From contig OZ024744.1 in assembly GCA_964016885.1 (NCBI GenBank), forward strand, positions 89,714,001 through 89,778,000: a stretch of 64,000 nucleotides of DNA. The letters are read 5' to 3'. Numbering within the stretch: the stretch's first letter is position 1; each line of letters opens with the position of its first letter. The notes under the pieces were generated by a model. The model was not told the DNA's origin. It was given only the letters and a program-made list of their open reading frames with translations, and ran no database searches. The stretch is from Eledone cirrhosa (taxonomy: Eukaryota). Shown here piece by piece: positions 12,915 through 62,980 of this stretch. Made by a program: the position numbers and the translations under genes.

Positions 12915-13390
12915 TATACAATATTAAATAAATGGAAAACTATATTTATAAAACCATATTTATTTCATTATATATATTTCGGGGATATCATATTAACAAT
13001 ATGCTATGCCTTCATCAGACAAAATACAATATAAACAGTTTTATAGATAAATATATTCGACATACCGTAATAAACATCAACTTCATTTGGAGAGGTTTAC
13101 GCTAGCAGTCTGCTAGCGTAAACCTCTCCAAATGAAGTTGATGTTTATTACGGTATGTCGAATATATTTATCTATAAAACTGTTTATATTGTATTTTGTC
13201 TGATGAAGGCATAGCATATTGTTAATATGATATCCCCGAAATATATATAATGAAATAAATATGGTTTTATAAATATAGTTTTCCATTTATTTAATATTGT
13301 AAATATACTCCAAATATTTGTCGAGTGCTTTTATATCAGTTATAAATATTTACTAGTTGTAACCCAACAATTTTAAATATAACTTTACAT
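12915..13390. mobile_element. Head-to-head HHR foldback, family A
   Basis: Near-perfect inverted repeat centred at ~13108 (GCTAGCAG-T-CTGCTAGC); plus arm has TATTTTGT-CTGATGA(13200)..ATATCCCC-GAAA-TATATA-TA-ATGAAATA; plus arm ~85 nt longer. Confidence 0.8.
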
Positions 13391-13431
13391 ATATATATAT
13401 ATATATATATATATATATATATATATATATA

Positions 13432-14300
13432 TGGAAAGTTATATTTAAATTGTTGGGTTAACAACGAGTAAATATTTATAACTGATATAAAAGCACTCAA
13501 CAAGTATTTGGAGTATATTTATGATATTAAATAAATGGAAACTATATTTATAAAACCATATTTATTTCATTATATATATTTCAGGGATATCATATTAACA
13601 ATATGTTATGCCTTCTTCAGACAAAATACAATATAAACAGTCTTATAAATAAATAGATACTTATAAATAAATAAATACTGATATTTACATTATAATGCCT
13701 GTTTTATATTTTCTACATGATGAAACATAGCGTTTTTTAAATTCTGCCTCGTTTATGTCTGGTTATTTTTCATTTTCTCTTTTTCATTTTCTCTTTTTTC
13801 TCTCTATATAACGTCTATTTTCTCTCTTAACTACATACATCTCTCTTTACATTAATACTAGAGCTAAATAAATAAATAAATAAATAAATAAATGTATCAC
13901 TTGATACTCAACTACCTAGTTTCTCTATCTCTATCTATTTCTTTCTTTTTTCCTCTCTCTATATATCTCTCTCTGTTTCTTTACATGAAGTTCTTCTCTT
14001 TATCTATTTTTCTATATCTCTCTATTTAGTCACATGCATTTCTTCTTTTTCTTCGTTTTTCTTCCTTTCTTTCTTTCTCTCTTTCTTTTTACAACTGTCC
14101 ACAATATTTTTTACTGCCAAATCAACCTCCCAAATGCAAGTCGATTGAAAGCTATGTCGTATCTATTTATTTATAAGACTGTTTATATTGTATTTTGTCT
14201 GAAGAAGGCATAACATATTGTTAATATGATATCCCTGAAATATATATAATGAAATAAATATGGTTTTATAAATATAGTTTCCATTTATTTAATATCATAT
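13432..14300. mobile_element. Head-to-head HHR foldback, family A variant
   Basis: Minus arm 13432-13660 and plus arm ending ~14298, each with CTGAAGA..GAAA-TATATA; same outer ends as the copy at 62132-62650. Confidence 0.8.
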
Positions 14301-15477
14301 ATATATATATATATATATATATATAGTTATGTAATAAACAACATAAGGCAATTATTCCATTTACCAGTGGTTTCTTAAAAGCAAATGATTTTGTTTTCAA
14401 TGCTCAGAATGAAAAAATCCTGGTCTGTTTATTGAATTTGGATTTTAAAAACAAAAATGCAATCTATATGAAAGTGAGGCTGGAGAAGGAAAGAAGGAAA
14501 GGAAAAATAAAATAAAACTACACATGCAAACACACACACAAAAACACAAAAGCATACATACACACACACACATATATATATATATATATATATATATACA
14601 TATATATACATATATATACATACATATACATACATATATATATATACACATACATACACTCATACATACACACACGCACACATATATACACACATATATG
14701 TGTATATAAATACACACGCACATAAATATCAACACATCCATACATACAAATACATATATACAACCACACACACATATATACACACATACATACACATAGA
14801 AACATAAATATAAATACATATACATACACACATATATATACATATATATATATATATATATATACACATATACATATATATATATGTGTGTACAAGCATA
14901 CACATACACAAACATAGCCATACACAGATACATAAACATACATGCATACATGCACACAATCATACATATATACACACGTACATACACATACATAAATGCA
15001 CTCCTCTACATATTCACACACGCAAATAAATATAAGAAAAAAAAAATATATATATATATATAAGAAATTTTTTGACAGCGATACAGAACGCAGCTAACTG
15101 GACAGACACGCGTGGTAAGTAATACACACAAATGCACGTATACATACGTACAAAATAGTAAATACATACACACACTCTCGCACATAAATATACATATACA
15201 AATACATAAACACATACATACACATACATGCACAAACACGCACACGTATACAATTATACACACACATATGTATATGTAATTATAAACACACACATATATA
15301 TATATATACACATAAATATAAACATACACACACACATATATGTATACATACACACATACATATACATAGCTATACAATTATACACATACAAATACGTACA
15401 TATCATAAACACGCACAACCAAATACAAACACACACACACACACATACATACATACATACATATATATATATATACA

Positions 15478-15965
15478 TGTAAAGTTATATTTAAAATTGT
15501 TGGGTTACAACTAGTAAATATTTATAACTGATATAAAAGCACTCGACAAATATTTGGAGTATATTTACAATATTAAATAAATGGAAAACTATATTTATAA
15601 AACCATATTTATTTCATTATATATATTTCGGGGATATCATATTAACAATATGCTATGCCTTCATCAGACAAAATACAATATAAACAGTTTTATAGATAAA
15701 TATATTCGACATACCGTAATAAACATCGACTTCATTTGAAGAGGTTTACGCTAGCAGTGAAAATACAGAGAGAAAGAAAGAGAGAAAAAAAATATATATA
15801 TTTTATAGATAAATATATATATTTATCTATAAAACTGTTTATATTGTATTTTGTCTGATGAAGGCATAGCATATTGTTAATATGATATCCCCGAAATATA
15901 TATAATGAAATAAATATGGTTTTATAAATATAGTTTTCCATTTATTTATTTAATGTAATATTGTA
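15478..15965. mobile_element. Head-to-head HHR foldback, family A, nested in the left PLE arm
   Basis: Minus long arm 15478-15758, plus short arm with CTGATGA at 15855; absent from the right PLE arm. Confidence 0.8.
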
Positions 15966-16019
15966 TATATATATATATATATATATATATATATATATAT
16001 ATATATATATATATATATA

Positions 16020-16221
16020 GGAACCAGTAAGACCCCGACAGCTGAGCTCAAGCCGTTTCGACGGCTAATTCTGGACTGAATTAGTCCAGAATTAGCCGTC
16101 GAAACGGCTTGAGCTCAGCTGTCGGGGCCTTACTGGTTCCTATTACCCACTCTACTACCTCAAGTATTGAGTACTTTGGTGCGTTATGGTCCACCTGGTT
16201 CCTTACCACATTTCCTTCGTT
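16020..16221. mobile_element. Small foldback retaining only the 3' half of an HHR-like motif
   Basis: GGAACCAGTAAG..GACGGCTAATTCTGGACT-GAATT-AGTCCAGAATTAGCCGTC-GAAA-CGGCTT..CTTACTGGTTCC plus an 80-nt tail; single-arm copy at 61600-61660. Confidence 0.65.
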
Positions 16222-61236: not shown

Positions 61237-61745
61237 CTGTCGTTGTTGATGAGAGAAAATGAAAATTATTACAGTACAATATAAAAAAAATATAATAATA
61301 ATTAGTCCGACATGGTGCTATGAAGTTAGACATGGCCGAAACCTATCAAAGTTATCAATTGCTATATATATATATATATATATATATATATATATATATA
61401 TATATTAGAATTGGATACATCCATATATATATATATATATATATAAGATATAATATATAAGAACCGTAGAACAAATATTTATTAAAATAACAGATTAAAC
61501 TTTAATCTGTTATATAACTAGGGTTCTTATATATTTGATATATATTTATCCTTATCGAGCCCTCTTTGGATTTTAGTCTTCAAATTTATATATACTAAAA
61601 TTAGTCCAGAATTAGCCGTCGAAACGGCTTGAGCTCAGCCGTCGGGGTCCTACTCGTTCCTATATATATATATATATATATATATATATATATATATATA
61701 TATATATATATATATATATATATATATATATATATATATATATAT

Positions 61746-62090
61746 ATGTGAAGATAGACATAGAATATTCGAAAATATTCTGTATGTTTATAATAAACAT
61801 TTTGAAGACCTAATCGCTATAGAATAGAATACGTCACGTATTACAATTAGATTCTCGATAAAAGCAAGGGAAGTAACCTACGCGTTTCATTCTTATTAGA
61901 AATCTTTAGGATTACATATCCAGTGCTTTTATCGAGAATGACACAGCTAGAGACTTATAGAATACTTAGCTTTTATCGAGAATCTAATTGTAATACGTGA
62001 CGTATTCTATTCTATAGCGATTAGGTCTTCAAAATGTTTATTATAAACATACAGAATATTTTCGAATATTCTATGTCTATCTTCACATAT
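61746..62090. mobile_element. Foldback in (TA)n with a degenerate HHR in the spacer
   Basis: Arms 61746-61865 / 61968-62090; minus strand TAATC-CTAAAGA-TTTCT-AATA-AGAAT-GAAA-CGCG-TA-GGTTA at ~61874-61914. Confidence 0.7.
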
Positions 62091-62131
62091 ATATCGCTAT
62101 TTCAGAGCATTTAATCCAATATATATATATA

Positions 62132-62650
62132 TATGGAAAGTTATATTTAAATTGTTGGGTTAACAACGAGTAAATATTTATAACTGATATAAAAGCACTC
62201 AACAAGTATTTGGAGTATATTTATGATATTAAATAAATGGAAACTATATTTATAAAACCATATTTATTTCATTATATATATTTCAGGGATATCATATTAA
62301 CAATATGTTATGCCTTCATCAGACAAAATACAATATAAACAGTCTTATAAATAAATAGATATGACATACCTTTCAATCTACTTGCATTTGGGAAGTTGAT
62401 TTGGCAGTAAAAATATTGTGGACAGTTGTCTCTCTTTCTTTTTACAACTGTCCACAATATTTTTACTGCCAAATCAACTTCCCAAATGCAAGTCGATTGA
62501 AAGGTATGTCATATCTATTTATTTATAAGACTGTTTATATTGTATTTTGTCTGATGAAGGCATAACATATTGTTAATATGATATCCCTGAAATATATATA
62601 ATGAAATAAATATGGTTTTATAAATATAGTTTCCATTTATTTAATATCAT
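62132..62650. mobile_element. Head-to-head HHR foldback, family A variant
   Basis: Arms meet at ~62430-62443; CTGATGA at 62551 (plus) and mirrored near 62316-62322. Confidence 0.8.
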
Positions 62651-62761
62651 ATATATATATATATATATATATATATATATATATATATATATATTGTTAT
62701 GCTTTGGGAGGGTCATGTTGTCAAAAATTCAGAAACGAAATATATATATATATATATATAT

Positions 62762-62980
62762 ATGTAGGAGGTGAGTTTTATTGTAGTACAATAAAGCAAT
62801 GCAGTACAATATGTTGATTTAAAACTGAACTATCCACAAGTGTTTTTTAACCTTCATATCATGTCTTCCTGTTTTATCTGATGAAAACACAAATATTATT
62901 GCATGATGATATTTGTTTTTGAAATGCGCATAATAAAATACATAGAACTCTTTTAACCACCTTTTGTTTATATATATTAT
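62762..62980. mobile_element. HHR element, family B (inverted tail + short arm)
   Basis: CTGATGA at 62878..GAAA-TGCGCA-TA-ATAAAATA; first ~45 nt match the tail at 22046. Confidence 0.75.

What the first reader, a model, noticed from the sequence alone, without database searches (positions are those of the whole stretch)
12915..62980. Reproducible long-arm/short-arm rule: fixed 3' ends, variable 5' junctions
Seen: in each foldback one arm stops ~40 nt after the ribozyme and the other runs 60-135 nt further. Independent copies share the same two outer ends but differ at the centre (13432-14300 vs 62132-62650; 12915-13390 vs 15478-15965; 12582-12900 vs 22046-22470 vs 62762-62980). The coding Naiad-like insertion obeys the same rule (short end 42678, long end 45295). 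Inference: two successive priming events on (TA)n, one per target strand, start at two defined points of the RNA, and the two cDNAs are then joined.
Basis: partly seen in the sequence, partly recalled or inferred. Interest (0 to 1): 0.75.

Follow-up and report, generated by a model that had tools for sequence, protein, structure and literature searches.

The report
Penelope elements primed twice per insertion
These mirror-image repeats are insertions of Penelope-like jumping genes that almost always pair one long arm with one short arm, likely because both ends of a staggered cut in TA repeats copy the same RNA from two fixed start points before the copies are joined, which would be a testable account of how these elements build their inverted ends.

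Summary
The rule is real. The foldbacks are 5'-truncated head-to-head insertions of coding Penelope-like elements (PLEs). Families A and B are Hydra-type; C is Neptune-like, not Naiad. Arm 3' ends fall on fixed sites. Of 137 resolved pairs 134 are long+short, as are 34 of 34 held-out pairs; genome-wide exact ends number 1264 short to 1339 long. The long-minus-short segment is the published PLE 'tail', whose ends match two in-vitro RT start sites (PMC11167929), so the core is partly known. Added here: both arms carry one template haplotype; 10-16 bp target duplications flank A and some B copies; tail-only long arms exclude simple snap-back; a twin hairpin follows each end in A and B. Corrections: 5' junctions are not just scattered, since about a third of A and B arms stop at one Initiator-like site (likely the capped RNA start), and the short end of C lies about 200 nt, not 40, past the ribozyme. 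Best model: twin priming on one RNA, then end-joining (0.7). This scan reported the same mechanism earlier on other DNA of this genome; the twin-hairpin lead came from those notes and was checked here.

The parts
12584..12899 (.). Family B stub: ~27-nt short arm (left, antisense) joined to a long arm (right, sense); hammerhead core at 12701
12806..12832 (+). Family B first hairpin motif (RCTCC...GAGTGC), a few nt after the short-end site, at the start of the tail
12919..13388 (.). Family A1 foldback: short end left, long end right; both arms stop at the putative RNA start, centre 13109
13184..13262 (+). Type I hammerhead motif of family A (CUGAUGA core at 13200, GAAA at 13238, tiny palindromic helix III); activity untested
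   Evidence: architecture as in PMC4209133
13300..13388 (+). Family A tail (~90 nt), present on the long arm only; first hairpin motif at 13307-13328
13433..14296 (.). Family A2 foldback: long end left, short end right; the short arm reaches ~550 nt into the 3' UTR
14326..21990 (.). One 7.7-kb head-to-head insertion of a fourth PLE (family D, Hydra motifs): short end 14326, long end 21990, 64-nt tail; later insertions nested at 15476-16220
15476..15963 (.). Family A1 foldback: long end left (arm to -127), short end right (arm to -34)
22046..22470 (.). Family B foldback: long left, short right; perfect palindromic centre at 22301-22306 where both arms reach the putative RNA start
42678..45292 (.). 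Family C (Neptune-like, C-terminal GIY-YIG) insertion: short arm left with RT thumb and EN coding sequence, long arm right with 59-nt tail; junction ~44232; hammerhead core at 44991
62135..62648 (.). Family A2 foldback: long left, short right
62764..62978 (.). Family B insertion whose long arm (~42 nt) holds only the end of the tail and is joined to a short arm that starts at the putative RNA start; neither arm can be a copy of the other

Best explanation
These are head-to-head insertions of Penelope-like retrotransposons in (TA)n, likely made when the element's endonuclease cuts the two strands about 14 bp apart and each 3' overhang primes reverse transcription on the same RNA, one at the short site and one at the long site, after which the two cDNA ends are likely joined. 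Shown by sequence: two fixed 3' ends, strict long+short pairing, target duplication, one template haplotype per insertion, a modal 5' stop, tail-only long arms, and a twin hairpin motif after each end in A and B. Inferred: the two hairpins place two RT active sites (probably a protein dimer); both start sites are TA-like, so the overhangs can pair weakly; with no RNase H (recalled) the RNA survives and the trailing long-site RT displaces the short-site cDNA; RTs primed near the RNA's 5' end run off the cap and give the 430-480-bp hairpin stubs, while those primed at the 3' copy give kilobase arms; cDNA 3' ends are joined by microhomology or a few added bases.
For: Pairing: 134 of 137, 34 of 34 held out, and 33 of 40 long-anchored B copies with a short partner and none with a long one; exact ends 1264 vs 1339. 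Target duplication of 10-16 bp in 15 of 27 informative flanks against a shuffled mean of 1.2, maximum 5 in 2000. Same template: within-pair divergence 0.28/0.89/1.98% vs 2.31/3.64/4.48% across pairs; at common (linked) polymorphic sites 1 discordance vs 71 expected in A and 2 vs 95 in B; held-out 0.22 vs 1.12% and 0.64 vs 4.46%. Same end of the RNA: an arm stopping at the putative start is paired with an arm reaching far upstream in 1 pair vs 6.4 expected (A, P=0.004) and 0 vs 11.9 (B). Either arm can reach further 5', and 16 long arms hold only the tail. The stop is the A of an Initiator-like motif; 10 of 18 unexplained bases before it are G in B (hand-sorted; P=4e-4). The hairpin motif occurs exactly twice per 3.9-kb monomer of A and B, 5-9 nt after each end. 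In vitro, an anole PLE cleaves and extends both strands, starts at two RNA sites that bound the tail, and is modelled as a dimer (PMC11167929).
Against: No target duplication in 0 of 6 informative C flanks and only 3 of 8 in B. 34 variants private to one insertion are present in both arms (13 A, 12 B, 9 C); rare source copies explain this, but so would one arm being copied from the other or later gene conversion. One RNA molecule cannot be told from two RNAs of one locus by genome sequence. The lean to the short site leading is weak: short arm further in 54 vs 35 pairs (P=0.056), 27 vs 7 held out; long arms pile up just past the short site in B (9 of 37) but not in A (3 of 33), and reference variants blur those positions. 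C lacks the hairpin motif. 5 of 40 long arms had no clear partner, and solo short arms exist. The RNA start is inferred, not mapped. In the anole enzyme the start site was described as not homologous to the target, whereas these sites are TA-like.
Confidence: 0.7

Rival explanations
1. One cDNA folds back on itself (or is self-primed on an antisense RNA) into a hairpin DNA, and the endonuclease trims this intermediate at the short site on one arm and the long site on the other before integration. This is the published view: palindromic junctions as self-priming (PMC3846280) and the tail from 'EN-mediated resolution' (PMC8557442).
For: Explains shared haplotypes, including the 34 private variants in both arms, perfect palindromic centres, and TA-like sequence at both ends as endonuclease sites.
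Against: In 16 insertions the long arm holds only the tail, so the short site would have to be cut in an unpaired loop and the arm's own template removed. The palindromic centres also follow from two cDNAs that both end at the RNA start and anneal through a self-complementary 4-mer. In vitro, both target strands are extended from RNA at the two sites. It needs an unknown strand-transfer step to give 10-16-bp duplications.
Confidence: 0.13
2. Twin priming by an asymmetric dimer that holds two RNA molecules from the same locus (cis preference), one read from the short site and one from the long site.
For: Gives the same pairing, target duplication and shared haplotype, and needs no strand displacement.
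Against: Does not by itself explain why one subunit always takes the short site and the other the long (3 homotypic pairs in 137, two of them with identical flanks on both sides, so probably secondary), nor why both arms come from the same end of the transcript.
Confidence: 0.13
3. The hairpins are assembly or library fold-back artefacts.
For: Long perfect palindromes are prone to such artefacts; no long reads were available to test them.
Against: Arms are asymmetric by a fixed tail, flanks carry target duplications, junctions hold added bases, and older families have diverged arms. Short raw reads of other samples show the long end followed by (TA)n, stops at the modal site, and inverted junctions, e.g. 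a tail-only arm joined to a start-site arm in 97 reads of one run.
Confidence: 0.01

Closest known systems
EN+ PLE insertions with an inverted 5'-truncated copy and a 'tail' at one end (Craig et al. 2021, PMC8557442; Arkhipova et al. 2013, PMC3846280)
   Same: [quoted passage not shown]
   Different: Tails here are 45-136 nt, not 30-40; the one-end rule is near-absolute and quantified; those papers attribute it to self-priming or endonuclease resolution, not to two primings.
Poseidon of Anolis carolinensis in vitro (Frangieh et al. 2024, PMC11167929)
   Same: Both target strands cut and extended; internal RT starts at two sites that define the tail, downstream of the hammerhead; ribozyme cleavage not needed; predicted dimer.
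   Different: The text read does not link the two sites to the two arms of one inverted insertion and leaves second-strand steps open; it is a different clade; its start sites are called non-homologous to the target.
Hydra clade of C-terminal EN+ PLEs (PMC8557442, section 11 and File S1, which lists one cephalopod family)
   Same: A, B and D show DKT, RWx, CxCx5C, CxxC..CxH, hammerhead motif and (TA)n targeting.
   Different: Monomers of A and B are ~3.9 kb (long 3' UTR) against <3 kb; their hammerheads differ from those listed in File S2; no tree was built.
L1 twin priming (Ostertag and Kazazian 2001; seen only as summarised in PMC2246262, details recalled)
   Same: Both 3' ends of the break prime on one RNA, giving an inversion joined at the centre.
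   Different: In L1 it is occasional, the second site is not fixed and the two pieces barely overlap (recalled); here it looks like the default route, both sites are fixed, and the arms usually overlap fully.

Membership tests
EN+ Penelope-like elements | Single ORF with RT and a GIY-YIG endonuclease | tested here: met
   Full or near-full ORFs for A (L070, L041), B (L180, 799 aa from Met) and C relatives; YxDD and GIY-YIG motifs. Pfam gave only a sub-threshold RVT_1 hit on 1 of 6 proteins.
EN+ Penelope-like elements | Partial tandem forming pLTRs | tested here: met
   Same-strand repeats 3933-3940 bp apart in L067, L182, L193.
EN+ Penelope-like elements | Hammerhead motif in the pLTR | tested here: met
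   Core, helix II and GAAA present in A, B, C, D; only B folds better than most shuffles (8 of 200); cleavage not testable.
EN+ Penelope-like elements | Inverted 5'-truncated copy with a tail at one end only | tested here: met
   134 of 137 pairs.
EN+ Penelope-like elements | Tail length of 30-40 bp | tested here: not met
   About 90 nt (A, B), 45 or 59 nt (C), 64 nt (D), up to 136 nt in another family.
Hydra clade (families A, B, D) | DKT, RWK-like, CxCx5C linker, CxxC and CxH in EN, no CCHH | tested here: met
   DKT in A, B, D; RWR/RWT in A, B; CxCx5C and CxxC..CxH in all three.
Hydra clade (families A, B, D) | Insertion into (TA)n | tested here: met
   Flanks.
Hydra clade (families A, B, D) | Generally shorter than 3 kb | tested here: not met
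   A and B monomers are 3.9 kb; a tendency in the source, not a strict criterion.
Hydra clade (families A, B, D) | Placement in the clade by RT phylogeny | not tested
   RT precedes EN in C and in its relative at 7162-9408.
   Hammerhead core with a 7-bp helix II at 44991.
Neptune/Nematis (family C) | [quoted passage not shown] | tested here: met
   CX4CxxC and two internal cysteines.
Neptune/Nematis (family C) | Clade placement by phylogeny | not tested
   No tree; Neptune versus Nematis left open.
Non-LTR retrozymes | Non-coding tandem unit without an ORF of its own | tested here: not met
   A, B and C stubs are ends of coding elements.
L1-type twin priming | Both target ends prime on the same RNA molecule | tested here: inconclusive
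   Same haplotype and same RNA end, but one molecule versus two from one locus cannot be told apart.
L1-type twin priming | Inverted and non-inverted pieces are nearly non-overlapping (recalled) | tested here: not met
   Most arms overlap by tens to thousands of bases; only 16 tail-only long arms are L1-like.

The most novel reading that the evidence does not exclude
For these PLEs twin priming is the standard integration route, not an accident: a dimeric RT-endonuclease docks on two copies of one RNA hairpin about 90 nt apart, primes both strands of a ~14-bp staggered cut on a single, undegraded RNA, and builds both DNA strands by reverse transcription alone, the trailing enzyme peeling off the leading cDNA. 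Retrotransposition then needs no DNA-templated second strand, and tail length is a ruler for the spacing of the two active sites along the folded RNA.
Probability: 0.4. Interest if true: 0.75.

Novelty: new variant of a known kind. Interest (0 to 1): 0.52.

Why it matters
How PLEs form their inverted repeats and one-sided tail is named as unsolved in the papers read (PMC8557442, PMC11167929). Thousands of young copies here turn it into sharp predictions: two hairpin-set start sites, one per strand, on one RNA, with run-off at the cap. An existing in-vitro system can test these directly. PLE RTs are the sister group of telomerase, and second-strand synthesis is the least understood step of target-primed retrotransposition. 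It also explains a large class of short palindromes in this genome as stubs of coding elements rather than MITEs, microRNA hairpins or assembly errors.

Tried and rejected
Rfam scan: only sub-threshold microRNA hits on hairpins and microsatellites; no hammerhead among the 150 rows shown. DNA search of the own genome returned nothing because common words are skipped; exact patterns were used instead. A direct genome-wide count of paired ends was not obtained; pairing rests on samples from contig C1 and on listed coordinates. No RNA holder was listed, so expression and the RNA start are untested. Reads laid on family A came mostly from 90-95% alike subfamilies and the region of the 5' stop was skipped as a repeat; they show a short end followed by (TA)n but say nothing on the centre. 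Homodimer prediction of the first 490 residues of the B protein gave no answer and is not used. Protein search gave 18 unnamed relatives and no clade label. Hammerhead cleavage as a 5' stop: no pile-up at the predicted cut in A (+51) or B (+56). Primer-template register test: target interruptions match the template base at one position in 4 of 32 B flanks but show no enrichment in A; inconclusive. Long-end variant versus arm origin: no association. I first took 14326-21926 for a palindrome extending into host DNA; one search showed it is one element with its own short and long ends. Non-autonomous or retrozyme origin of the A, B and C stubs rejected (coding parents). The Ostertag and Kazazian paper was not held.
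Full report
Observation. The window lies at G000:C28:89714001-89778000 in a 3.0-Gb genome; the host was not identified. They belong to three families: A (12919, 13433, 15476, 62135), B (12584, 22046, 62764) and C (42678-45292). Exact motif counts show 3008 matches for one A subfamily, 8226 for B and 6706 for C. At least six more foldbacks in the window follow the same rule, with tails of about 33 to 136 nt.

What they are. All three families are ends of coding elements. 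Tandem copies 3.9 kb apart carry RT followed by GIY-YIG, and the sequence after the long end runs on into the 5' UTR and ORF. A, B and the nested family D have the Hydra motifs DKT, CxCx5C and CxxC..CxH, and A and B also RWx (definition in PMC8557442 section 11). C has a CX4CxxC linker, a C-terminal endonuclease and a hammerhead motif, so it is Neptune-like and fails both Naiad criteria.

3' ends. I fetched loci around most of the first 100 motif matches of A and B and about 70 of the first 100 of C on contig C1 (190 merged segments, 856 kb) and added the window. Among arms at least 88% like the reference, A gave 66 short, 67 long, 4 read-through and 7 other of 144; B 68, 65, 4 and 2 of 139; C 59 short, 27 plus 22 at two long ends 15 nt apart, 2 read-through and 3 other of 113. 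Of 144 head-to-head pairs (one tandem triplicate counted once), 7 had an end that was neither; 134 of the other 137 were long+short. Two of the three exceptions have identical flanks on both sides for hundreds of bases, so their ends are not independent events. Genome-wide, exact A ends number 1264 short and 1339 long. Pairing the listed coordinates gave 66 of 66 mixed head-to-head pairs, 34 of 34 in a stretch not used before; 61 of 197 ends had no exact-match neighbour within 12 kb. Of 40 B long ends taken in order beyond 65.6 Mb, 33 had a short partner, 2 ran off the fetched edge, 5 had no clear partner and none had a long partner.

This is the PLE tail. [quoted passage not shown] PMC11167929 (parts 1-2 of 4, covering the whole main text; three supplement files searched without hits; figures not seen) shows an anole PLE cutting and extending both strands, starting at two internal RNA sites that bound the tail. 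PMC3846280 (passages and Discussion) reads palindromic junctions as self-priming on an antisense template. So the anatomy and the two start sites are in print. Six searches found no paper that states one start per strand on one RNA as the origin of the inverted arms; subscription journals are mostly outside the library.

5' junctions. They are variable but peaked. Counting from the hammerhead core, 28 of 88 A arms stop at -92 to -85 and 34 of 90 B arms at -70 to -66 (pairs at least 80% covered by element sequence); held-out sets give 14 of 40 and 18 of 46. The stop is the A of an Initiator-like motif after a pyrimidine tract; in A it reads TCACT, the motif named in a rotifer pLTR. In B, 10 of 18 bases before that A that neither arm explains are G (hand-sorted from the 45 stopping arms; P=4e-4 against 18% G), as expected if RT reads the cap. 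A was too ambiguous to sort. I infer that the stop is the capped RNA 5' end. No such peak was seen in C. In 102 well-covered pairs the junction had microhomology in 38, was blunt in 12, and had 1-15 extra bases in 43 and more in 9; reference variants inflate the last two classes.

One template. The two arms differ by 0.28, 0.89 and 1.98% in A, B and C, against 2.31, 3.64 and 4.48% between insertions; at common, linked polymorphic sites discordance was 1 vs 71 expected (A) and 2 vs 95 (B). Held-out pairs agree. An arm that stops at the RNA start is almost never paired with one reaching far upstream (1 vs 6.4 expected in A, P=0.004; 0 vs 11.9 in B, none of 20000 permutations), so both arms come from the same end of the transcript. 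Against a clean reading, 34 variants private to one insertion sit in both arms (103 in one arm only), which rare sources, arm copying or gene conversion could each produce.

Two primings. Either arm can reach further 5' (short 54, long 35, equal 28; held out short 27, long 7). In 16 insertions, including window 62764, the long arm holds only tail sequence, so neither arm can be a copy of the other. Where the (TA)n target is interrupted, the interruption is duplicated on both sides in 15 of 27 cases (A 12 of 13, B 3 of 8, C 0 of 6), over 10-16 bp with a mode of 14; shuffled flanks give 1.2 on average and at most 5 (101 of the pairs had flanks that could be anchored). That geometry leaves a 3' overhang on each side, each able to prime. 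Both start sites are followed by TA-like bases. Following a lead from earlier scan notes, I found that an RCTCC...GA(G/A)YGC hairpin motif occurs exactly twice in each A and B monomer, 5-9 nt after the short and the long end, and not in C. The folds are weak on their own.

Artefact test. Short raw reads from three other samples with the same species label show the B long end followed by (TA)n, loose ends at the modal 5' stop, opposite-strand joints, and a tail-only arm joined to a start-site arm in 97 reads of one run; contigs of another run fold back at the same stop. These are RAD reads from few loci and may be duplicates; no long reads were listed.

Mechanism and verdict. Shown: fixed ends, pairing, target duplication, shared haplotype, modal stop, twin motif. 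Inferred: staggered cut, two active sites set by the hairpins, one RNA, displacement by the trailing enzyme, cap run-off, end-joining. I give this 0.7, the published hairpin-resolution view 0.13 and two RNAs from one locus 0.13. The order of priming is open. A few arms exceed one monomer and pass the upstream start site, which needs a tandem or circular template. The finding is a new variant of a known kind: the tail and two starts are published, and the strict pairing on one template is the addition. Eight earlier notes of this scan on other DNA of this genome reach the same model; they are not independent support. Other papers seen: PMC4209133 (passages), bioRxiv 10.64898/2026.07.22.740005 (part 1 of 5), PMC2246262 (one passage on L1 twin priming). 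The lack of RNase H in PLEs, cap reading by RTs and the details of L1 twin priming are recalled.

Noticed in passing
window 14326-21990: One 7.7-kb head-to-head insertion of a Hydra-type PLE (family D) that obeys the rule with a 64-nt tail; the A copy at 15476 and the foldback at 16020-16220 are nested in a (TA)n of its left arm only.
   Followed up: partly
window 16020-16220, 31915-32404, 34792-34986, 41061-41437, 53928-54360, 61748-62120: Further long/short foldbacks of other families, tails about 80, 136, 101, up to 74, 97 and 33 nt; the hairpin motif can be read in the tail of the 34792 copy.
   Followed up: partly
L146 (C1:35313400-35318000) and L147 (C1:35904000-35910000): The short+short and long+long B exceptions carry identical flanks on both sides for at least 500-750 bp: secondary inverted duplications, or B ends carried inside a larger twin-primed transcript.
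   Followed up: partly
L040-L041 (C1:68539100-68550200), L187, L182: Some arms are longer than one monomer and run past the upstream putative start site, which needs a multimeric or circular template.
   Followed up: no
L010 (C1:19122472) and L185 (C1:5392500-5398500): Partner arms that begin at a non-canonical TA-like site upstream of the hammerhead instead of the usual short site.
   Followed up: no
several loci, e.g. L044, L169, L184: Solo arms with (TA)n on both sides are mostly short-type, and some hide partner arms of only about 13 nt; two have an extra G before the start-site A.
   Followed up: partly
family A, positions -122 to -127 and -78 to -81 from the hammerhead core: Secondary 5' stops: in the pyrimidine tract for arms from the 3' copy, and about 10 nt downstream of the main stop.
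   Followed up: no
window 9487-10273: A 790-bp palindrome without a clear (TA)n end on the right or a hammerhead motif; does not seem to fit the rule.
   Followed up: no
window 52867-61265, minus strand: Exon-like fragments resembling a matrix metalloproteinase (HExxH zinc motif, recalled); the elements here would be intronic.
   Followed up: no
window 23600-27525: Broken Helitron-like rep/helicase fragments (resemblance recalled).
   Followed up: no
window 7162-9408, minus strand: A 748-codon ORF of a PLE related to family C, with RT and C-terminal GIY-YIG.
   Followed up: partly
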